A stretch of 64,000 bases of DNA from Ostreococcus lucimarinus (GCA_000092065.1 CP000584.1), one strand, 5' to 3'; counted from the first letter of the stretch, positions 34,711 through 43,281 are shown. Notes: generated by a model from the sequence alone, not told the origin. Numbers and translations are program-made.

Positions 34711-34864
34711 ATAGATGGCCGAAAGGACCGTAATATACGACATCCACGATTTTTGTCCCCCCCCAACCGCGACGTCGCGCGTTCGTGCGTGTTACGGTTT
34801 CTTTGCGCGCGCCGACCGACCGGGCGCGACATCTCGCGCGGCCGACATCGTCGCGCGCCCGGCG

Positions 34865-35656
34865 ATGTCGACGTCGGATCTCTCCGACGTCGAGACCGCG
34901 CGCGAGGCGCGCGCGGAGTCCGGTCGCGCCGCGTGCGCGCGCGTGCTCGCGACGCAGCGCGACTACTACCGCGTCCTCGAACTCCCGCGCGCGGCGAGCG
35001 CGGCGGACGTGAAGAAGGCGTACCGAAACCTCGCGCGCGTGCTGCACCCGGACAAGTGCGATGACCCGCGCGCGACGGACGCGATGGCGATCGTCACCTC
35101 GGCGCACTCGACGCTGACGACGCCGGCGCTGAGGGCGGCGTACGACTTGTACGCGGCGCGCGTCGACGTCGGCGACGCGAACGCGGATTCCTTCGGCGAG
35201 TGGCAGAGCAAGGAAGGCGCGGCGGCGGTGCATCTGCCGCCGTGGTTGATCAAAGCGATGGCGACGCCGGTGTTGGCGCAACTCATCGGGTTCTTGGCGC
35301 TGGTGCTGTTGTTGGCCGCGGCGGCGTTGGCGTTGGCGTTGGCGTTGGCGTACTTCGTCGTGCACATGGCGTTTTGGTTCGCGTGCTGTTTCGGGTGCTG
35401 CGGCTCGTGCTGGCCGCGTTACGGCATGGGCGCGCGCGTTCACGCCAAGCGTCAGGCCCGTTTCACGGAGATGCTCAAGGATTACGAGCGCGCCGCGATG
35501 GAGGCGTCGGCGCGCGGCGACGAGGGACCCGCGCCGACGGTTTTCTTCGCGCAGTGGAACGTCGACCACCCGGAGCCGGATTGGGTCGAGCGCATTCGCG
35601 AGGAGGACCGCGCCGAGGCCGCCGCGCGCGCGTCGCCGGCGTACGGCGCGACGTGA
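34865..35656 (+). CDS. DnaJ (J-domain) membrane protein with TM helices and Cys-cluster (CCFGCCGSC)
   Basis: ATG at 34865 (MSTSDLSDVE; the track ORF start at 34715 overlaps the tRNA). J-domain DYYRVLELPRAASAADVKKAYRNLARVLHPDKCDDP (HPD motif). Hydrophobic stretch LAQLIGFLALVLLLAAAALALALALAYFVVHMAFWFACCFGCCGSCW. Confidence 0.7.
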   Translation: MSTSDLSDVETAREARAESGRAACARVLATQRDYYRVLELPRAASAADVKKAYRNLARVLHPDKCDDPRATDAMAIVTSAHSTLTTPALRAAYDLYAARVDVGDANADSFGEWQSKEGAAAVHLPPWLIKAMATPVLAQLIGFLALVLLLAAAALALALALAYFVVHMAFWFACCFGCCGSCWPRYGMGARVHAKRQARFTEMLKDYERAAMEASARGDEGPAPTVFFAQWNVDHPEPDWVERIREEDRAEAAARASPAYGAT

Positions 35657-35745: not shown

Positions 35746-36690
35746 ATGGATCGCGCGGCGGTCGCCGCCGCCGACGACGCCGCGTCGACGTCGGACGACG
35801 CGTTCGCGTACGTCGCGCGCGCGCCGTTCGAGCCGCGGCGCTTCGCCGCGCTCCTGCGCGCGAACTTTGACGTCGCGCGCTTCGGCGACGGCGGCGACGA
35901 CGTCATCGCCGGCGCCGCGCGCGACGAGGGCGCGTTCGAGGGCGCGCGCGCGGCGTCGGGCGTGGTTTGGATCGCGTCCCGGCCGAACGTGCGCGGGATC
36001 TTTAGGATGGACGACGGGGACGACGGCGTCGTCGTCGTCGCGTGCGCGGGCGCGTGGCACGAGGACGGCCGCGGCGCGTGCGAGACGCCGGCGGAGGCGA
36101 GCGAACGCGTCTTCTTCGGCGATCGAAGGCAGCACGTAGTTTTTGAAGGCCGCGATCTCGACGCGATGAAAATTAAAGCGCGATTGGACGCGTGCTTGCT
36201 GACCGAAGCCGAGGACGCGGACGAGACGAATCGCGCGAACGAGTCGTACTGCGGTTCGACGTGGCCGACGGCGACGGAGGTGATGGCGAGCGCGGGCGTG
36301 GAGGCGGTCGAGCGCGGGGTGAAACACAAGGCGTTTTACCCGAGCGGTGGCGTCGACGGCGTCGTGGCGTCGACGGCGGCGATGTCGGTGTCGACGTCGC
36401 GCGAGCGCGGCGGCGACGCGTTCCGGGACGTGCGCGTTCCGGAGGCTTTCGCGCCGCCGCTCGCGGGGCAATCAGAAAAGACGTTTCCGGACGGGCAAGT
36501 CGGGTACTTTTTTGAGGACATGCCGTGTTTGGAGTGCGGGTCGCCGTGGTGGTTCGGTGAAGACTGGGACTCGCGTTGCGCCAACTGCGGCGCCGACGAT
36601 CGCACGTACGGCGGCGATCAACGTCCGATTCGGTCAAAGCGGCGGATTTACGACGAGTTTCGCGCGGCGTGGCGTCGACTCGCTGATTGA
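35746..36690 (+). CDS. Hypothetical protein with CobW-C-terminal-like domain and C-terminal zinc-ribbon (CLECG…CANCG)
   Basis: ATG at 35746. FAYVARAPFEPRRFAALLRANF…GVVWIASRPNVRGIF resembles the CobW/HypB C-terminal domain. C-terminal CxxC…CxxC. Weak assignment. Confidence 0.45.
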   Translation: MDRAAVAAADDAASTSDDAFAYVARAPFEPRRFAALLRANFDVARFGDGGDDVIAGAARDEGAFEGARAASGVVWIASRPNVRGIFRMDDGDDGVVVVACAGAWHEDGRGACETPAEASERVFFGDRRQHVVFEGRDLDAMKIKARLDACLLTEAEDADETNRANESYCGSTWPTATEVMASAGVEAVERGVKHKAFYPSGGVDGVVASTAAMSVSTSRERGGDAFRDVRVPEAFAPPLAGQSEKTFPDGQVGYFFEDMPCLECGSPWWFGEDWDSRCANCGADDRTYGGDQRPIRSKRRIYDEFRAAWRRLAD

Positions 36691-36713: not shown

Positions 36714-39700
36714 TTAGAAACCGACGAACTTTTCTTCGCTCGAGTTCGGCGGCGGACCGTTCATCCACGTAAACTTACCCGTCTTCGCGTCTTTGATGCT
36801 CGACAAGTCGGCTCGCGAGAGCTGTTCGGGGAGGAAATGAAGCGGGCGAAGTTTGCCGCTCATGACGGCTTCCCAGTCGATGGTTTCGTACCACGCGTGA
36901 CCCTTGATAGCGCCCAAGCCCGGCGCACGAATGCCTAAGCGGAGCGATTCGTCGCGCACGAAAATTTGCGACAACATCTCGTGCACGTCGTTGTCCATGC
37001 GTCGCGGCACGGGGACGGCGGCGAAATCCGCGCGAACGATGCGTTTGTACAAATCGCGACGCTGTCGGTCGCGAAACGGCGGAAATCCGGCGATCATTTC
37101 AAACACCAAGATACCGAACGCCCAGATATCCGCCGCGCGCGTGCATCCTTGATGCAAGATGAGCTCCGGCGCGAGGTAATCCGGCGTGCCGCAAATGGTG
37201 TACGCGCGTTGGCCTTTTTCCAACTTTTTCGCAAATCCAAAGTCACCGATCGTGATCGAGCCATCCGAGCGCAAGAGCAAGTTTTCGGGTTTCATGTCGC
37301 GATAGACATACCCGGCGCTGTGAATGTACTCCAGCCCGAGCAAGACTTGCGCGGTGTACACTTTGATTTGCCCAATGCCGGGTAATCCGCTTCTGTTGAA
37401 CAAGTCAAACATATCGCCGACGCAATCCTCGACGACGAGATATAGTGCCCATGGGTCCTGAAACGAGGCATAGTAGTTGCAAACGAACGGTGCATGGCGG
37501 AGTTCTTCTAGCGCGCGCCTTTCTGCCATACAATGCTCTTCTTCACCGTTTTCGATGACTTGCGATTTCGGCATGGTTTTAATCGCACACACCTTGCCCG
37601 AGCCCTTGTGCTTGGCGCGCAACACCAGACCGACCATGCCTTGTCCGAGGATGTCCACGACTTCGAACTCATTCAGACTCTTCGTACCTTGAAGCTCTAC
37701 GATCGTGGGACTGTGCGATCGTAGCGAGCCACTGAGCGCTGAGGAACGCTTCTCTTTAAGCGACGTCGCCGGCGGCTCGTGCAACATCGCCGTCTCCTCC
37801 GCGAGCACTGGCAAATGACCCGCTGATCCAGCTTGCGGAGACTTCTTCGCTCGTCCAAACGCGGCAAACTTCTTGCCAAAACGTAGGTGCTCGCTGGACG
37901 TTGATAACAGGTTCGATTGCGATCCGCTCGATGGCGACGGTGGCGACGGATCCAAGAACGTCGACACCGGCGCGCTGAGGTTAGGCGCGCTCGGATTCGC
38001 CGCGATCCGAAGACCAGCCAAAGCGCTGCTCGATCCTCGTTGCCGGCTCTCAGCACCTGGAATTCCGACGCCCGATTCTTCGTCGGCGCGCCTACTCGGC
38101 TCCATGTCTGCGCCGACGGAATCGACACCGATGACTTGCAAGACAAAGTTTTGCGTGCACGTCAAAATCACCGTATCCGTGAGCGCAATGTACACCCCTT
38201 GCATGGTCGTCTCTCCCGCCAAGACTTCGTCGCCGAAGTATCCACCGCTCGTGATCTTTCTGACCTTCGTCCGTCCGTTTTCCTTCATAGAGCACTCGAC
38301 TTCTCCGTCCATCACCATGAACATCTTCACTTGCATGCCTTCTCTGAAAATGACTTCACCGGCGCGGTAAGCGCGTCTACCGCGCTGCACGAGCAATTCA
38401 CTCAACGCCTCTAAACTCGCGTGTTCAAATGGCTTGAACACCGGACAATGTATGACGGCATCGTACGCCGCCTTGCGCGCCTTGGACATGACGTCTTGAA
38501 TCACCGCCGCGAAGACTTTTCGCGTGATGCCGAGCAAGACAGAATCCTCCGCGGCGACAAGCTTTGAAGGCGACGGCGTCGGTTCGGTGAGCACTTCTTC
38601 ACCCCACGTGTCACCAGACTTTAATGTCGTTCCATCCGGCACGACGTTAACTTTGCCATCAATGAGAAGGTAAAACGTATCCGCGCCTTCTCCCGCTTGT
38701 ATCACCGTGGCCCCCTCCGGGAACACCAAGCGCGTCGCCGCCTTGCTCAACGCCTCGACTAAAAGCCCGGCCAAACCGGCGTGACGCACGGCTGGAATCG
38801 AGCGAAGCGCCGATGCGAAAATATCGAGCTCCCACGATTGCGGCGGCGTCACGAGGTCGATGTATTGCGTGTTTTGAATGCCGCTTGCGCCTTCGCTCAC
38901 GCCCGGCAACGTTTGCTCCGTCGGGACGAAATCGGCGTCTCGAGGGATGGAAAATCGCTGCGAAATCGCGCGTCGATGACGCCTTAAAAGGAGAACCGAC
39001 TTAATGTACGCCAAGTCCGTCTCGCTCACCTTGCCGTGGGTCTTCATGTCCAAAAGTAAAAAACAATTTTCAACCGTGTCGCCGACGGTGAATAAATTTC
39101 CTCGAATCACGCTAATACCTCTCGCGACGCACGCGGTACAAAAATCTGCCATCAGCCCCGGTCGATCTAGCACTTGCATTTTAATCTCTGTCGCGTTTTC
39201 CACATCCTTATCGTCGAAGAGCACGCCGTGCACGCTTCGTTCCTTGGACACGAACGTTTCGTCTCGCTCCTCCTCCGCGAAGGGGCCGTACTTCTCCGTG
39301 TCCTCTGGGTCCTCCTCCGTCACCGCCTCCAGCGCGGCTTGCCTCTTCTCCGGTTTCTTCCGCACGATGTCCTCCAACTCTTGACTCACCTGCTCGCTCG
39401 ACTGTTCGCTCAATTTACACCGCGTCTCCTCCTCGCACACGTACAGCGTGTACAACACGCGTCGACTGTCCCGCACCACGTCCGCCTGCACCACGTTCAC
39501 CCCTTTCCGCGTCAAGTACGTCGCGATCTCGCTTATCAACCCAACGCGATCGGCGCACTCGATCCGTATGTACGTGTGATGCTCGTTCGCCGTGTTGCTC
39601 ACCGCCACGCGCGCCGCGTCCGCGTCGTCCGCGTTCAAAGTCGTCCCCGCGAGCTCGTCCGCCGCGTCCGCGACGCCGTCCGACCTACTCCCGCCTCGCT

Positions 39701-39743
39701 TCGAGCTTCGCGCGCGACTGAGAAATCTCTTGAGCAGTCCCAT
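36714..39743 (-). CDS. cGMP/cAMP-dependent protein kinase-like AGC kinase with two N-terminal ACT domains and two cyclic-nucleotide-binding domains (ACT-ACT-CNB-CNB-kinase), 1009 aa
   Basis: ATG at 39743..39741. ACT-like: YIRIECADRVGLISEIATYLTRKGVNVVQADVV and IKMQVLDRPGLMADFCTACVARGISVIRGNLF. CNB domains: …FPEGATVIQAGEGADTFYLLIDGKVNVV… and …YRAGEVIFREGMQVKMFMVMDGEVECS…. Kinase: VAIKTMPK…, YRDMKPENLLL, DFGFAKKL…TICGTPDYLAPE. AGC C-terminal tail present. Confidence 0.85.
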   Translation of the reverse strand: MGLLKRFLSRARSSKRGGSRSDGVADAADELAGTTLNADDADAARVAVSNTANEHHTYIRIECADRVGLISEIATYLTRKGVNVVQADVVRDSRRVLYTLYVCEEETRCKLSEQSSEQVSQELEDIVRKKPEKRQAALEAVTEEDPEDTEKYGPFAEEERDETFVSKERSVHGVLFDDKDVENATEIKMQVLDRPGLMADFCTACVARGISVIRGNLFTVGDTVENCFLLLDMKTHGKVSETDLAYIKSVLLLRRHRRAISQRFSIPRDADFVPTEQTLPGVSEGASGIQNTQYIDLVTPPQSWELDIFASALRSIPAVRHAGLAGLLVEALSKAATRLVFPEGATVIQAGEGADTFYLLIDGKVNVVPDGTTLKSGDTWGEEVLTEPTPSPSKLVAAEDSVLLGITRKVFAAVIQDVMSKARKAAYDAVIHCPVFKPFEHASLEALSELLVQRGRRAYRAGEVIFREGMQVKMFMVMDGEVECSMKENGRTKVRKITSGGYFGDEVLAGETTMQGVYIALTDTVILTCTQNFVLQVIGVDSVGADMEPSRRADEESGVGIPGAESRQRGSSSALAGLRIAANPSAPNLSAPVSTFLDPSPPSPSSGSQSNLLSTSSEHLRFGKKFAAFGRAKKSPQAGSAGHLPVLAEETAMLHEPPATSLKEKRSSALSGSLRSHSPTIVELQGTKSLNEFEVVDILGQGMVGLVLRAKHKGSGKVCAIKTMPKSQVIENGEEEHCMAERRALEELRHAPFVCNYYASFQDPWALYLVVEDCVGDMFDLFNRSGLPGIGQIKVYTAQVLLGLEYIHSAGYVYRDMKPENLLLRSDGSITIGDFGFAKKLEKGQRAYTICGTPDYLAPELILHQGCTRAADIWAFGILVFEMIAGFPPFRDRQRRDLYKRIVRADFAAVPVPRRMDNDVHEMLSQIFVRDESLRLGIRAPGLGAIKGHAWYETIDWEAVMSGKLRPLHFLPEQLSRADLSSIKDAKTGKFTWMNGPPPNSSEEKFVGF

Positions 39744-40084: not shown

Positions 40085-40699
40085 ATGCCGTGGTTCGTGT
40101 GCGAGTCGTGCGGGGACACGCTGAAGAAGCCGAAGATTAAGGCGCACTTTAACCGCTGCGCCGCCGAGGCGTTCAGTTGCATCGACTGCAGCGCGACGTT
40201 CGATCGACGGAGCGTGCAGAATCACGTGGCGTGCGTGACGGAGCACGAGAAGTACGCGCTGGGGGCGACGAAGGGGGCGGCGGGACACGAGCGGGCGCGA
40301 GCGGTGGCGGCGGAGGGGACGGAGCGACGCGGCGGGGACGGCGGCGAGACGTTCGGAGAGGAGTTCCTGTCGACGAGGCCGCCGTGGAGGTGCTCGTGCT
40401 GCGGGGTGTCGTGCACGAGCGAGGAGACGCTGTCGGGGCACGCGAGCGGGAAGAAGCACAAGAGTAAGGCGAGGAGCGCGAGAGCGCGGGCGGCGGGCGA
40501 GACGCCGGGGAACGCCGAAACGGCCGAGGCGGTCGAGGCAAAGGCGAAGGATGAACGCGTTGAAAAGAAGGTGAAGAAGGAGAAGAAGGAGAAGAAGGAG
40601 AAGAAGGAGAAGAAGGAGAAGAAGGAGAAAAAAGGGAAGAAGTCTTCCGAAAAGGATTCATCCGACGACGGACCGAAGCGCAAAAAGGCGAAGAAGTAA
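40085..40699 (+). CDS. LYAR: LYAR-type C2HC zinc-finger nucleolar protein with Lys/Glu-rich C-terminal repeat tail
   Basis: ATG at 40085. MPWFVCESCGDTLKKPKIKAHFNRCAAEAFSCIDCSATFDRRSVQNHVACVTEHEKY matches LYAR N-terminal tandem C2HC fingers (MVFFTCNACGESVKK…CISEDQKY). Second finger WRCSCCGVSCTSEETLSGHASGKKHK. Tail (KKEKKE)n. Confidence 0.7.
   Translation: MPWFVCESCGDTLKKPKIKAHFNRCAAEAFSCIDCSATFDRRSVQNHVACVTEHEKYALGATKGAAGHERARAVAAEGTERRGGDGGETFGEEFLSTRPPWRCSCCGVSCTSEETLSGHASGKKHKSKARSARARAAGETPGNAETAEAVEAKAKDERVEKKVKKEKKEKKEKKEKKEKKEKKGKKSSEKDSSDDGPKRKKAKK
40565..40645 (+). repeat. (GAAGAAGGAGAA)n microsatellite, about 6 units, encoding the KKEKKE… tail of LYAR
   Basis: Read directly from the sequence. 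Confidence 0.7.
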
Positions 40700-40743: not shown

Positions 40744-43281
40744 TCAAATCTTCACTTCTACTTCGTCGCCATCCGTGCACCGTTTGGACTTGAGCACGAA
40801 CGTCGGCGCGTCGTCGTCGGGCGAGCCGCTCACCAGGGAAAGTATGTGCGCGGCGCCGATAAAGTCCATGAAAAGCGAACCATCCTGAGCTGGCGCGATG
40901 CCCCATTTACCTTTGCCCCACGGCGTGTCGAGTGTACCATCTTTATGAAGGACTAATCCCGGATTACCTCCCCAAGATCCGGGTGCGGTCTCCGTCTTTT
41001 GCGACATCGCCAGAGCGAGCGGCGAATTATCGATGCCGTTGTGTTGCGCTCGCAACTTACACTCCTTCGCTCCCTTCCTCCCTTCGCTCCAGTTCCAGAC
41101 ATCAATCGCATTTGCTTCACCTTTCCAGTACTGCGCTATGACGGACACCATGCGATCGGGCTTTTCAGGGTGGTAGTTGATGTGCACGCTTGCGGGTCGG
41201 TGATCTGGGTACAGATCCTCGTCGTAACGCATGAAGCGGAACATGTACTTGGAATTCTGGAAACACATGTAGTTCATCACGCGCTGGCTCGTTCCAGAAT
41301 ACTTCTTATGCTTGGACTGACCCCAGAGATACACCTGCTCCTCGTTGTACGCCGTCTGGTCCCACGTATTCTTCTCCGACGCCATGCGTTCGGCGAGTCT
41401 TGACATCATCGCCTTCGTCTCGTGCGTCGCCGCGACGAAAAACAACCCGCTATTCCGTGCGATCAACCGTCGCTGACCGTTCCATGAGAAACCGTACGAC
41501 GTCGGATCGTCCCATCCATCGGTCATTCCTTCGACGTCGGCGTCTCGATAGATCAAGCGTTTGTTTCTCGCGCTCTCACCTGCAGCGAAAGGATCTTGCA
41601 TCCAAACCACATCCACATCCGATAACAACACCGACGTCCCAGTGGATACGAATTCATTCAACACTCGGAACTTTAATCCCGACGTCGCGTGATTGTCAGT
41701 ACTACCTGTGATTGACGTTAGCTCGCGGTGATAGTACGGCACCTCGCGCTGCTTGCACCAATCCGCAGTCTCGCTATCGAGAGCCACAATGACGTAGTTC
41801 GTGATCCCCGTCCGCTTCAACCCATCGATGTACAGCTCAAGCATGTGAAAGATGTTCTTGTTACTCACCGCCGCGAGAACTTCGCGGTTTCGCGCGACTT
41901 TTCTAACCACCTCGCACAAATCCGCAAACTCGTCGCACGCGACCGGGTACTCACCCTCGGGCTCGGCGATGTATCGCAGCTCTCGCGGCTTCGGTCCTAT
42001 TCTCTCGTCTGCCTTCACGATGCCACATTTCTCCCTTCGCATTACGTGCGCCTTCGCATCCTTAAAGTTGGGCTCTTGCGCCACGACGGCGTTTTCATCC
42101 GTCGTCTGACCGTCCCAATGCGTCGAACCGTCGGGCACGTGAGCGACGCTCCCCTTTTCGGCAAAACACTCCGAATTAAGTAATCGAAACGATACACCCG
42201 CACGCTGCCGCGCATCGTGCGCTGGTAGGAGAATTTCATCCGTGAGAGCGTCGTCGCTTCCGTCAAAGTCGGACGCTTCCGACGCCAACCAATGGACGAG
42301 CGAATACGTCGCTCGCGTAGGTCGAAGCACCACGAACGTCGTCCGAATGAGAGGAATCACCATCGATTGCGAGTACTGCGACCACCCCATGGCGGGATCA
42401 GCCATGCCTTGCACGCGTGCGCTCCTCTTTCCGTCTCCTCGAATCGTCGCGCTCACGTCGGCGCCGTCGTCGAGCAACGCCGTCAAAGGATTCGACGCGA
42501 ACTTCACCGTCGACGACGCCAGAGCGACGGCGTGCCCGCGTTGCAGCACCACCGCCGCCGTCATCCATCCTCCCTCGTTTCTGCTCGCACCCTCGCTCGG
42601 CAAATGCGACGGCACGCCGGCCGTCTCGCACGTCGCCTTCTCCGTCTCGCTCGTCGTCGCCACCAACACCGCGCGCGCCCCGGACGCTTTCGCCGCTCGC
42701 ACGCGCGCGTCGATCGTACCACCGTACACGACCAAAAATCCAAACTCCGCGGAATCTTCCGAGCGAAGTTTCGCGAGATGCGCGCACGCCGTCGTCTCGA
42801 GCGTCGCGTCCCGCGTCGCCTCTCGCGCCTCGCCCGGCGCCGCGCACGACGCCCTTCCTCGCGCCGCCTTCGGCGCGCGTTCGACCCACGCCTCGGGCAC
42901 GCTCAACTCACCGTGCGTCGACGTCCGCGCCGTCGCCATCGCGTCGCGCGTTGTCGTCGTCGTCGTCCCGTCGTCGCCGTCTCGCGCGCGTCCCGCGAAG
43001 TCTCCGCGCGCGTCCCGCGGTCGCGTCGCCTCCGGCGCGCGCTCCATCGCGCGCCCGCGCGCGTCGTCCGCGACCATCGCGCGCGCGTTCGCCGCGCTCG
43101 AGCGCGCGTCGCTCGAGCGCGCGTCGATGGTTTCGGGCGCGAAAGTCTCGCGCGCGGTGAACGGTGAACGGCCGCGCGCGGCGACGACGCCCAGCGCGAC
43201 GACGACGCACGCGATCGCGCCCGCGCGCGCGATGGCGCGCGTGACGCCGCGACGGACGACCCGGCGGACGACGCGCGCCAT
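40744..43281 (-). CDS. Type II membrane glycosyltransferase with nucleotide-diphospho-sugar transferase domain (GT77-like; RRA/XEG113 arabinosyltransferase family) plus C-terminal domain of unknown function
   Basis: ATG at 43281..43279. N-terminal signal-anchor AIACVVVALGVVAA. Domain NIFHMLELYIDGLKRTGITNYVIVALDSETADWCKQREVPYYH…LKFRVLNEFVSTGTSVLLSDVDVVWMQDPF is characteristic of PF03407 (Nucleotid_trans). Confidence 0.7.
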   Translation of the reverse strand: MARVVRRVVRRGVTRAIARAGAIACVVVALGVVAARGRSPFTARETFAPETIDARSSDARSSAANARAMVADDARGRAMERAPEATRPRDARGDFAGRARDGDDGTTTTTTRDAMATARTSTHGELSVPEAWVERAPKAARGRASCAAPGEAREATRDATLETTACAHLAKLRSEDSAEFGFLVVYGGTIDARVRAAKASGARAVLVATTSETEKATCETAGVPSHLPSEGASRNEGGWMTAAVVLQRGHAVALASSTVKFASNPLTALLDDGADVSATIRGDGKRSARVQGMADPAMGWSQYSQSMVIPLIRTTFVVLRPTRATYSLVHWLASEASDFDGSDDALTDEILLPAHDARQRAGVSFRLLNSECFAEKGSVAHVPDGSTHWDGQTTDENAVVAQEPNFKDAKAHVMRREKCGIVKADERIGPKPRELRYIAEPEGEYPVACDEFADLCEVVRKVARNREVLAAVSNKNIFHMLELYIDGLKRTGITNYVIVALDSETADWCKQREVPYYHRELTSITGSTDNHATSGLKFRVLNEFVSTGTSVLLSDVDVVWMQDPFAAGESARNKRLIYRDADVEGMTDGWDDPTSYGFSWNGQRRLIARNSGLFFVAATHETKAMMSRLAERMASEKNTWDQTAYNEEQVYLWGQSKHKKYSGTSQRVMNYMCFQNSKYMFRFMRYDEDLYPDHRPASVHINYHPEKPDRMVSVIAQYWKGEANAIDVWNWSEGRKGAKECKLRAQHNGIDNSPLALAMSQKTETAPGSWGGNPGLVLHKDGTLDTPWGKGKWGIAPAQDGSLFMDFIGAAHILSLVSGSPDDDAPTFVLKSKRCTDGDEVEVKI

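What the first reader, a model, noticed from the sequence alone, without database searches (positions are those of the whole stretch)
36714..39743. AGC kinase with the unusual architecture ACT-ACT-CNB-CNB-kinase (PKG-like kinase fused to amino-acid-sensing ACT domains)
The N-terminal ~220 aa contain two ACT-like ferredoxin-fold modules (YIRIECADRVGLISEIATYLTRKGVNVVQADVV; IKMQVLDRPGLMADFCTACVARGISVIRGNLF). Two cyclic-nucleotide-binding domains and a complete AGC kinase with C-terminal tail follow. ACT domains are normally found in metabolic enzymes and in plant STY/ACR kinases, not fused to cNMP-regulated AGC kinases. The fusion suggests one kinase integrating small-molecule (amino acid/purine) and cyclic-nucleotide inputs. 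The ORF is continuous with a genuine ATG, which argues against a chimeric gene model.
Basis: partly seen in the sequence, partly recalled or inferred. Interest (0 to 1): 0.5.

Follow-up and report, generated by a model that had tools for sequence, protein, structure and literature searches.

The report
ACT-sensor PKG-like kinase, cNMP-blind
This is a real, expressed green-alga (Ostreococcus) gene for a PKA/PKG-type protein kinase that carries two amino-acid-sensor-type ACT domains in front of two cyclic-nucleotide-binding-fold domains that have lost the arginine needed to hold cAMP/cGMP, so it probably responds to a metabolite rather than to a cyclic nucleotide.

Summary

Three points change the interpretation. 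(1) Both CNB domains lack the phosphate-binding-cassette arginine (Ser391; Met/Ile/Leu514) in all nine Ostreococcus orthologues, yet they are strongly conserved. Canonical cAMP/cGMP sensing is therefore unlikely. (2) The ACT pair is of the GlnD/ACR (glutamine-sensor) type. It ends one residue before an invariant PKA-RI-like basic motif, RRHRRAIS. (3) The architecture is not unique. It marks a small clade of prasinophyte AGC kinases (Ostreococcus, Micromonas, marine metagenomes), all with degenerate CNBs. Databases already hold it under automatic names, but I found no paper that describes it.

Best reading: an autoinhibited PKG-style kinase gated through its ACT pair, with the CNB folds acting as scaffold. 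It is a new variant of a known kind and of moderate interest.

The parts
36714..39743 (-). Whole ORF: 1009 codons plus the stop at 36714-36716. Intron-less gene for the ACT-ACT-CNB-CNB-AGC kinase.
   Evidence: transcript ORF P0058 is 1005/1009 identical; the same gene is called on Logan contig SRR1179203_764 with the same neighbours
39609..39743 (-). N-terminal tail (res 1-45). It begins MG(L/F/I)xxxF with Gly2 invariant, and is otherwise poorly conserved (32% mean pairwise identity). Possible acylation signal; this is inference only.
39360..39608 (-). ACT1 (res 46-128), with the loop motif D65-R-V-G-L69
39228..39359 (-). Acidic, disordered inter-ACT linker (res 129-172)
   Evidence: pLDDT below 50; 37% mean pairwise identity
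38988..39227 (-). ACT2 (res 173-252), with the loop motif D193-R-P-G-L197 and F228. It is the unit most like GlnD/ACR ACT domains.
38955..38984 (-). Inhibitor-site-like basic motif RRHRRAISQR (res 254-263). It starts one residue after the last helix of ACT2. It is invariant in the 9 Ostreococcus orthologues apart from His256, which is Ala or Gln in three of them.
   Evidence: compare the PKA-RI-alpha autoinhibitory sequence RRRRGAISAE (bioRxiv 10.1101/2023.11.08.566240). Not conserved in the Micromonas-type relatives.
38454..38846 (-). CNB-A fold domain (res 300-430)
   Evidence: Pfam cNMP_binding 49.1 bits; aligns to PfPKG and Bcy1 CNBs; Foldseek to PKA-R/PKG at E about 1e-10, from a low-confidence model
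38553..38603 (-). Degenerate phosphate-binding cassette A, GEEVLTEPTPSPSKLVA. Ser391 occupies the Arg position; residue 392 (Pro/Ser/Glu/Thr/Lys) occupies the Ala position.
38109..38453 (-). CNB-B fold domain (res 431-545)
   Evidence: Pfam cNMP_binding 44.4 bits; aligns to Bcy1 CNB-B and to the non-binding CNB-C of PfPKG
38184..38234 (-). Degenerate phosphate-binding cassette B, GDEVLAGETTMQGVYIA. Met514 (Ile or Leu in orthologues) occupies the Arg position.
37677..38108 (-). Ser/Pro-rich linker of about 144 residues (res 546-689) between CNB-B and the kinase. No Pfam family and 39% mean pairwise identity. It holds small conserved islands, e.g. R567-Q-R-G-S (a basophilic phospho-site-like motif) and SAPNL.
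36894..37676 (-). AGC kinase core (res 690-950). GxGxxG 700-705, K722, E741, Y-R-D816, N821, D834-F-G, activation-loop T849 and APE are all invariant.
36717..36893 (-). AGC C-terminal tail (res 951-1009), ending in F1006-x-x-F1009-COOH (Tyr in 3 orthologues)
   Evidence: the alignment to PKA C-alpha reaches PKA residue 330

Best explanation
The gene encodes a single-chain, PKG-style autoinhibited AGC kinase. It belongs to a small clade restricted, as far as found, to prasinophyte green algae.

Shown here:
- A catalytically complete PKA/PKG-type kinase with an FxxF tail.
- Two CNB-fold domains arranged as in PKA-R/PKG. Both lack the cassette arginine, yet both are under purifying selection.
- A compact pair of GlnD/ACR-type ACT domains at the N-terminus.
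- An invariant basic motif, RRHRRAIS, that starts one residue after the last ACT2 helix.

Inferred:
- In the resting state the basic motif occupies the substrate cleft, and the CNB tandem docks on the kinase as in the PKA RI:C and PKG R:C complexes.
- The CNB folds act as the autoinhibitory scaffold. They may be self-liganded or bind a non-cyclic ligand. They are not cAMP/cGMP receptors.
- The regulatory input comes from a small molecule binding at the ACT1-ACT2 interface. By homology this is most likely an amino acid, with glutamine the leading candidate.
- Because the inhibitor-like motif is tethered directly to ACT2, ligand-induced rearrangement or dimerisation of the ACT pair would pull the motif out of the cleft (or push it in).
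- The ACT pair sits where PKG has its leucine zipper and PKA-R has its docking/dimerisation domain.
For: - Architecture and expression.
- Kinase type and catalytic residues.
- GlnD/ACR affinity: NCBIfam TIGR01693 covers res 34-248 at E 4.9e-14. Outside the family, the nearest homologues of the ACT pair are GlnD C-termini (E 1e-12 to 1e-6) and a plant ACR1. The DRxGL motif is present in both units.
- Green-algal precedent: a GlnD/ACR-like ACT domain makes Chlamydomonas AMA2 glutamine-responsive (PMC11190351).
- Degenerate cassettes: residue-level alignments to PfPKG and Bcy1. There are 0 canonical cassette motifs in the window protein and in all four other ACT-bearing relatives, while 111 of the 149 sequences screened (148 of the nearest representatives plus the window protein) have at least one. 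Cassette positions are tabulated.
- Functional meaning of losing the arginine: PMC6628679 and PMC10959531.
- Constraint: mean pairwise identity is 71-79% for the ACTs, 85% for the motif, 73-77% for the CNBs and 89% for the kinase, against 32-39% for the linkers.
- Motif resemblance to RRRRGAISAE.
- Clade.
Against: - No ligand, activity or interaction was measured. The ligand identity (glutamine) rests only on homology, and the AMA2 mutagenesis did not pin down binding residues.
- The RRHRRAIS register is imperfect. With Ala259 at P0 and Ile260 at P+1 (as in RI-alpha and PKI), P-3 is His/Ala/Gln rather than Arg. With Ser261 at P0, P-2 is Ala and P+1 is Gln.
- The motif is absent from the Micromonas-type relatives. 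A PDB sequence search with the 30-mer found nothing significant.
- A linker of about 144 residues between CNB-B and the kinase is unlike PKG. It may allow other geometries.
- The CNB part of the first AF2 model had low confidence, so pocket geometry could not be examined.
- ACT2 alone falls just below Pfam's cut-off (26.1 against 27 bits).
- The kinase tree is a single NJ tree without support values.
Confidence: 0.45

Rival explanations
1. It is a genuine cyclic-nucleotide-dependent kinase (as the database names 'cGMP-dependent protein kinase' imply). It adds an ACT-borne amino-acid input to a functional cAMP/cGMP input.
For: Two Pfam cNMP_binding domains score above the cut-off. The tandem CNB fold matches PKA-R/PKG. 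The Gly-Glu pair of the cassette is kept in CNB-A, and Gly-Asp/Glu in CNB-B. O. tauri has class III cyclase-like genes (PMC5159850) and other CNB-kinases (PMC4143559), so cNMP signalling probably exists in the cell.
Against: The cassette arginine is absent from both domains in all 9 orthologues and from the distant ACT-bearing relatives. In the window protein and three other orthologues, Pro392 sits at the position whose backbone NH normally contacts the phosphate; that role is from my own knowledge of PKA-R structures. PfPKG CNB-C without this arginine does not bind cGMP. Restoring the arginine was sufficient for a response to cIMP in trypanosome PKA-R.
Confidence: 0.12
2. This is a dual-ligand sensor in which the CNB folds bind a non-cyclic ligand (for example a nucleoside or nucleotide), as in trypanosomatid PKA. 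The ACT pair binds a second metabolite.
For: In trypanosomatid PKA-R the arginine is replaced by polar residues, and the domains bind inosine/guanosine with nanomolar affinity (PMC10959531). Here CNB-A has Ser at that position, and both cassettes carry an extra acidic residue (G-E-E-V-L and G-D-E-V-L). The CNB domains are strongly conserved, as expected for a working pocket.
Against: The diagnostic trypanosomatid Glu sits at the RI-alpha Ala202 position (GELE-L). Here that position is Val, and the extra Glu is one residue earlier. In the O. mediterraneus group the CNB-B Glu is Asn. CNB-B has a hydrophobic residue at the Arg position. No alpha-D lid was identified.
Confidence: 0.15
3. The ACT pair binds no ligand. 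It serves as a dimerisation or scaffolding module, as in the plant bHLH ACT-like domains. The kinase is controlled mainly by phosphorylation (activation-loop T849 and sites in the linker) or by partner proteins.
Against: The ligand-loop motif DRxGL and Phe228 are invariant in both units across Ostreococcus. In ACT2 they are kept out to Micromonas-type relatives at about 26% overall identity. The closest sequence relatives are the glutamine-sensing GlnD ACT domains, not the bHLH type. The tandem packs like the ligand-binding pairs of aspartokinase, IlvA and CASTOR.
Confidence: 0.2
4. This is a gene-model artefact: two adjacent genes (an ACT protein and a CNB-kinase) read as one ORF.
For: None beyond the general caution that the genome is compact; for example, the next gene ends 23 nt from the kinase stop.
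Against: There is one uninterrupted ORF. A complete transcript ORF of the same length is 99.6% identical without gaps. O. mediterraneus has complete 1080-aa transcripts with the same order. Collinear orthologues occur in nine clusters, including the annotated O. tauri proteins. The same fusion occurs in Micromonas-type and other relatives.
Confidence: 0.01

Closest known systems
cGMP-dependent protein kinase (PKG) and the PKA RI-alpha:C holoenzyme (AGC kinases, PKA/PKG subfamily)
   Same: Regulatory and catalytic parts lie on one chain, as in PKG. A tandem CNB-A/CNB-B fold sits N-terminal to a PKA/PKG-type kinase. A basic RI-like motif (RRHRRAIS against RRRRGAISAE) sits about 120 residues before cassette A. 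The activation-loop Thr and the C-terminal FxxF are present.
   Different: Both cassettes lack the arginine, so cGMP/cAMP dependence is unlikely. An ACT pair stands in place of the leucine zipper or D/D domain. A disordered linker of about 144 residues separates CNB-B from the kinase. The register of the inhibitor-like motif is one residue shorter.
GlnD (protein-PII uridylyltransferase) C-terminal tandem ACT domains and plant ACR (ACT-domain-repeat) proteins; Chlamydomonas AMA2 ACT domain
   Same: These are the closest sequence relatives of the N-terminal pair. The tandem is collinear with them and has DRxGL loops in both units. The GlnD and AMA2 ACT domains confer a response to glutamine (PMC11190351).
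   Different: Here the pair is fused to a protein kinase rather than to a nucleotidyltransferase/HD enzyme, an amylase, or nothing. ACT1 has diverged: VVRD...LYTLYV in place of the I-T-T...D-x-F-x-V pattern. Ligand binding is untested.
Trypanosomatid cAMP-independent PKA regulatory subunit (nucleoside-binding CNB) and the non-binding CNB-C of Plasmodium PKG
   Same: These are CNB folds retained in a PKA/PKG-type regulatory module after loss of the cassette arginine. CNB-B of this protein aligns to PfPKG CNB-C.
   Different: The trypanosomatid signature Glu at the RI-alpha Ala202 position and the alpha-D lid are not seen. The lineage and architecture are unrelated.
Plant STY8/17/46-type ACT-domain kinases (TKL group); O. 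tauri has one, Ot05g02530
   Same: An ACT domain and a protein kinase share one polypeptide. The reference list of PMC11190351 cites Eisa et al. [quoted passage not shown] I did not read that paper.
   Different: The kinase group differs (TKL, not AGC). STY kinases have a single ACT domain, no CNB domains and a different origin. The O. tauri kinome paper lists the TKL one as ACT-containing but makes no such note for any AGC kinase.
CASTOR1/2, cytosolic arginine sensors for mTORC1
   Different: CASTOR is a separate protein acting through GATOR2, not a domain fused to the kinase. There is no detectable sequence relationship.

Membership tests
AGC protein kinase, PKA/PKG subfamily | Kinase domain most similar to PKA/PKG, with all catalytic motifs | tested here: met
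   PKA C-alpha scores 215 bits (E 8e-63) and PKG I 190 bits. GxGxxG, K722, E741, YRD816, N821, DFG834 and APE are invariant.
AGC protein kinase, PKA/PKG subfamily | AGC C-terminal tail with a hydrophobic motif, and an activation-loop Thr | tested here: met
   The alignment to PKA runs to PKA residue 330. F1006-x-x-F/Y1009 lies at the C-terminus, and T849 aligns with PKA T197. Pfam's Pkinase_C model did not hit.
cGMP/cAMP-dependent kinase (PKG sensu stricto) | Tandem CNB domains on the same chain, N-terminal to the kinase | tested here: met
   Pfam cNMP_binding 49.1 and 44.4 bits; PDB alignments; Foldseek.
cGMP/cAMP-dependent kinase (PKG sensu stricto) | Canonical phosphate-binding cassette (FGELAL..xxPRAA) with the Arg that binds the cyclic phosphate | tested here: not met
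   Ser391 and Met/Ile/Leu514 occupy the Arg positions in 9 of 9 orthologues. There are 0 canonical motifs.
cGMP/cAMP-dependent kinase (PKG sensu stricto) | Autoinhibitory (pseudo)substrate segment N-terminal to CNB-A | tested here: inconclusive
   RRHRRAIS is invariant in Ostreococcus and resembles RRRRGAISAE. However, the register is imperfect, the motif is absent from distant relatives, and no docking test was possible.
cGMP/cAMP-dependent kinase (PKG sensu stricto) | Activation by cGMP or cAMP | not testable with these tools
   This needs a biochemical assay.
ACT domain (Pfam PF01842), GlnD/ACR type | Profile match above the curated threshold | tested here: met
   The whole protein scores 53.6 bits against a cut-off of 27. 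ACT1 alone scores 36.5 and ACT2 alone 26.1. ACR10_N scores 38.8 bits. GlnD TIGR01693 matches over both units at E 4.9e-14, far below its full-length cut-off because only the ACT end matches.
ACT domain (Pfam PF01842), GlnD/ACR type | Ferredoxin-like beta-alpha-beta ACT fold, with units paired side by side | tested here: met
ACT domain (Pfam PF01842), GlnD/ACR type | Small-molecule (amino-acid) binding at the beta1-alpha1 loop or domain interface | not testable with these tools
   The DRxGL loops are conserved, but binding must be measured.
Trypanosomatid-type nucleoside-binding CNB | Arg replaced by a polar residue, plus Glu at the RI-alpha Ala202 position (GELE-L), plus Val after the former Arg | tested here: not met
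   The Arg-to-Ser change is present in CNB-A only. The Ala202-equivalent residue is Val384/Val507, and the Glu is one position earlier.
Plant STY-type ACT kinases | TKL-group kinase domain | tested here: not met
   The kinase is of AGC type. The O. tauri STY-like ACT kinase is a different gene, Ot05g02530.

The most novel reading that the evidence does not exclude
In the most abundant marine picoeukaryotes, a PKG-architecture kinase has given up cyclic nucleotides. It is switched directly by an amino acid (glutamine or another nitrogen-status metabolite) binding a GlnD-type ACT pair that is welded to the kinase's own inhibitor segment. That would make it a one-protein nitrogen-status sensor kinase: a eukaryotic counterpart of the bacterial GlnD logic and a fused counterpart of CASTOR-mTORC1.
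Probability: 0.2. Interest if true: 0.75.

Novelty: new variant of a known kind. Interest (0 to 1): 0.5.

Why it matters
How eukaryotic phytoplankton sense their internal nitrogen status is poorly understood. Mamiellales (Ostreococcus, Micromonas) are globally abundant and live under nitrogen limitation. A kinase that carries a GlnD-type ACT pair directly upstream of its inhibitor-like segment is a concrete, testable candidate for a direct metabolite-to-phosphorylation link. O. tauri is genetically tractable and has a very small kinome.

Independently, this clade is a second natural case, after trypanosomatid PKA, of a PKA/PKG-type regulatory module that keeps its CNB folds after losing the cyclic-phosphate arginine. 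That bears on how versatile the CNB fold is. It also shows that the database names ('cGMP-dependent protein kinase', 'cAMP-dependent protein kinase catalytic subunit') probably mislead.

If the ACT pair turns out to bind nothing, this is simply a lineage-specific domain shuffle of modest interest.

Tried and rejected
- my CNB query was out of frame. Repeated in frame.
- a word-indexed homology search with the ACT-ACT-CNB-CNB profile returned only an Ostreococcus fragment and weak CNB-only hits. The exhaustive representative search was needed to find distant members.
- AF2 of residues 44-552 from six close orthologues gave pLDDT 51.9, too poor to inspect the CNB pockets or domain packing. Its Foldseek hits speak only for the CNB tandem fold. 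I did not draw any inhibited-state conformation from it.
- a PDB sequence search with the 30-residue segment around RRHRRAIS gave no significant hit. The inhibitor-site reading therefore stays at the motif level.
- Literature searches for the fusion found no paper. The O. tauri kinome paper and its supplements do not mention ACT on any AGC kinase. The O. tauri phospho-dawn paper does not mention the protein class. I could not confirm which Ot locus tag (possibly Ot04g02440) corresponds to Q01B06/CAL51642.
- N-myristoylation: Gly2 is invariant, but residue 6 is Arg/Lys, which does not fit the usual consensus (from my own knowledge). Left as a remark.
- I considered whether the Micromonas-type proteins (P0136, P0133) are orthologues or paralogues of the window gene. 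The NJ tree places P0129 closer, so the relationship stays open.
- Organisms of P0129, P0133, P0173 and P0245 could not be determined.
Full report
OBSERVATION.

An in-frame stop lies 18 codons upstream, with no other start codon in between. Pfam on the whole protein finds ACT (53.6 bits, two stretches), ACR10_N, cNMP_binding (85.3 bits, two stretches) and Pkinase (201.5 bits).

Scanned piece by piece:
- ACT1: 36.5 bits.
- ACT2: 26.1 bits (E 7e-6), marginally under the 27-bit cut-off when taken alone.
- CNB-A: 49.1 bits.
- CNB-B: 44.4 bits.
- The linker of about 144 residues before the kinase matches nothing.

All part coordinates were checked by translation.

ONE GENE, EXPRESSED.

The window comes from an Ostreococcus genome. 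The nearest named orthologues are O. tauri proteins at 74% identity (OUS49420.1; CAL51642.1 = Q01B06) and an O. mediterraneus protein at about 64%. Nine orthologue clusters share the full architecture and align collinearly.

An MMETSP transcript ORF flagged 'type:complete' (P0058, 1009 aa) is 1005/1009 identical to the window ORF without a single gap. O. mediterraneus has complete 1080-aa transcripts with the same order. The exact protein is also called on an independent assembly contig with the same neighbours. A chimeric gene model is excluded.

THE KINASE.

The best solved relatives are PKA C-alpha (215 bits, E 8e-63), yeast Tpk1 and PKG I (190 bits), and the alignment runs into the C-tail. 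All catalytic residues are invariant, as is the activation-loop Thr849 (which aligns with PKA T197). The protein ends in F-x-x-F/Y-COOH, as PKA does. It is an active-looking AGC kinase of the PKA/PKG subfamily.

THE ACT PAIR.

- Sequence. NCBIfam aligns residues 34-248 to the C-terminal double-ACT end of GlnD (TIGR01693, E 4.9e-14). A search with the ACT-pair profile finds bacterial [protein-PII] uridylyltransferases (E 1e-12 to 1e-6) and a plant ACR1 protein as the nearest outsiders. The pair aligns collinearly with these tandems and keeps the DRxGL loop in both units.
- Structure. A first AF2 run from six close orthologues was poor (pLDDT 51.9). With GlnD and ACR relatives added (15 sequences), the pair models at pLDDT 81.6 and pTM 0.77, with both units above 90 and a disordered acidic linker between them.

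The ACT claim is therefore confirmed both by profile and by fold.

THE CNB DOMAINS ARE NOT CANONICAL.

Residue-level alignments to Plasmodium PKG and yeast Bcy1 place Ser391 (CNB-A) and Met514 (CNB-B) at the position of the cassette arginine. Across the nine orthologues that position is Ser in 9 of 9 for CNB-A, and Met/Ile/Leu for CNB-B. The next residue, normally Ala, is Pro/Ser/Glu/Thr/Lys in CNB-A. The reference cassette is FGELAL[ILVM]xxxPRAA.

Two experimental precedents bear on what losing this arginine means:
- PfPKG CNB-C has Pro in place of the 'universally conserved' arginine and does not bind cGMP (PMC6628679).
- Trypanosomatid PKA-R has polar residues there and binds inosine/guanosine instead of cAMP. 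Re-introducing the arginine was sufficient for a response to cIMP (PMC10959531).

The domains are not decaying. CNB-A and CNB-B show 77% and 73% mean pairwise identity, against 32-39% for the linkers. I therefore regard canonical cAMP/cGMP sensing as unlikely. The CNB folds may act as an autoinhibitory scaffold or as receptors for something else. From my own knowledge, the arginine-less, self-liganded CNB-homology domains of KCNH channels are a further precedent for the scaffold reading.

AN INHIBITOR-LIKE MOTIF WELDED TO ACT2.

The last helix of ACT2 ends at residue 252. The motif R254-R-H-R-R-A-I-S261 follows immediately. It is invariant in Ostreococcus apart from His256, and it lies in the best-conserved stretch outside the kinase (85% identity). 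It resembles the PKA RI-alpha autoinhibitory sequence RRRRGAISAE. It lies about 120 residues before cassette A; in RI-alpha the distance is about 105 residues, by my own numbering of that protein.

Caveats:
- The register is one residue short (RR-AIS against RRGAIS), so either choice of P0 leaves one canonical position unmet.
- A PDB search with the 30-mer finds nothing significant.
- The motif is not present in the Micromonas-type relatives.
- PKA/PKG inhibitor segments are known to share only a small P0 residue rather than a fixed sequence.

DISTRIBUTION.

An exhaustive profile search of 1.84 billion representatives collapses all Ostreococcus orthologues into one cluster. Scores then fall steeply: P0129 at 429 bits, P0130 at 389 bits, and then the general CNB-kinase crowd at about 240-340 bits.

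Among the 150 best hits, four further proteins combine ACT, CNB and kinase:
- P0133 (1452 aa).
- P0136, whose cluster holds the partial Micromonas pusilla CCMP1545 protein EEH59741.1.
- P0173, an MMETSP transcript.
- P0245.

All four have weak cNMP_binding scores (24-40 bits) and no canonical cassette. By contrast, 111 of the 149 sequences screened (148 of the nearest representatives plus the window protein) have one to four canonical cassettes, and the ordinary CNB-kinases that I scanned score 115-190 bits.

A simple NJ tree of kinase domains places all ACT-bearing proteins in one 17-leaf clade out of 143 leaves. That clade also holds a Nephroselmis pyriformis fragment. P0129 is sister to Ostreococcus. 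P0129 has no ACT pair and almost no CNB signal. The Thalassiosira hit (P0130) and the Chlorokybus hit (P0134) have CNBs but no ACT.

The fusion therefore looks ancestral to a small prasinophyte clade and goes together with cassette degeneration. The tree has no support values.

WHAT IS KNOWN.

The protein is in public databases under automatic and mutually inconsistent names: 'cGMP-dependent protein kinase', 'cAMP-dependent protein kinase catalytic subunit' and 'RmlC-like jelly roll fold'. JGI lists kinase, CRP-like cAMP-binding and ACT together. [quoted passage not shown] It names an ACT-containing TKL kinase but notes ACT on no AGC kinase. Full-text searches found no paper on an ACT-CNB-AGC kinase.

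Relevant precedents:
- A GlnD/ACR-like ACT domain makes Chlamydomonas alpha-amylase 2 glutamine-responsive (PMC11190351).
- ACR-type ACT domains were recruited into bHLH factors early in green algae, where they dimerise (PMC10175843).
- O. tauri has cyclase-like genes (PMC5159850).

MECHANISM.

Shown: an active-type PKA/PKG kinase, a PKA-R/PKG-like CNB tandem lacking both arginines, a compact GlnD-type ACT pair, and a conserved basic motif directly after ACT2.

Inferred: the basic motif and the CNB tandem hold the kinase inactive in cis, as in PKG. A metabolite binding at the ACT1-ACT2 interface, or ACT-mediated dimerisation, moves the directly attached motif and so sets activity. Glutamine is the first candidate by homology. 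I put about 0.45 on this.

Rivals:
- The ACT pair is only a dimeriser, and control is by phosphorylation (0.2).
- The CNBs bind a non-cyclic ligand, so there are two inputs (0.15).
- A chimeric gene model (about 0.01).

VERDICT.

This is a new variant of a known kind: a PKG-style kinase with a GlnD-type ACT pair and arginine-less CNBs. It is conserved in an ecologically important algal order, unstudied, and directly testable in a tractable organism. Interest is 0.5.

Noticed in passing
P0129 (1113 aa; alignment A3 columns about 60-140), not in the window: The closest non-Ostreococcus relative by kinase domain has no ACT pair. In its place its N-terminus carries two long hydrophobic stretches (..FACSLAICLFACIYQNCALG.. 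and ..FAWIFGAFVFSFPLLVLTVV..). These look like membrane anchors. Its CNB region has nearly lost all profile signal. This suggests rapid swapping of the N-terminal regulatory module in this clade. The organism is unknown.
   Followed up: partly
P0124 (323 aa, 1257-bp ENA metagenome contig), not in the window: This fragment matches the P0006-type clade over its first 135 or so residues. It is identical to the window-type sequence from about EQSSEQVSQELEDIV onward. It is either a chimeric metagenome assembly or a recombinant between Ostreococcus clades.
   Followed up: no
window 35746-36690 (+) and 34715-35656 (+): Two genes lie downstream of the kinase. One is a CobW_C-domain protein (32.7 bits) with a Cys-rich C-terminus; it ends only 23 nt from the kinase stop codon, in convergent orientation. 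The other is a DnaJ-domain protein (63.3 bits) with a hydrophobic, Cys-rich middle segment. The same gene order is seen on an independent contig (L001).
   Followed up: partly
window 40085-40699 (+): A LYAR-type C2HC zinc-finger gene (zf-LYAR 49.6 bits plus a zf-met finger) is transcribed divergently from the kinase. The two ATGs are 341 nt apart, so they probably share a bidirectional promoter region. The protein ends in a (KKE)n low-complexity tail.
   Followed up: partly
window 40744-43281 (-): An 845-aa ORF has a nucleotide-diphospho-sugar transferase domain (Nucleotid_trans, 176 bits) and a weak PA-domain hit. The N-terminus is Arg/Ala-rich.
   Followed up: no
window 38019-38051 (-), res 565-575 of the kinase: Within the otherwise poorly conserved Ser/Pro-rich linker there are small conserved islands. 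One is R567-Q-R569-G-S (an RxRxxS-type basophilic phospho-site motif); another is SAPNL. They may be autophosphorylation or docking sites.
   Followed up: no
whole window: GC content swings between about 0.53 and 0.70 in 2-kb windows. Long spurious ORFs are abundant on both strands, so ORF length alone is a weak gene indicator here.
   Followed up: no
database records of the O. tauri orthologue (CAL51642.1/Q01B06, OUS49420.1): The same protein is named 'RmlC-like jelly roll fold', 'cAMP-dependent protein kinase catalytic subunit' and 'cGMP-dependent protein kinase'. None of these reflects the ACT pair or the degenerate cassettes. The Micromonas pusilla entry EEH59741.1 is a partial model (616 aa) of a protein of about 1166 aa.
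   Followed up: partly
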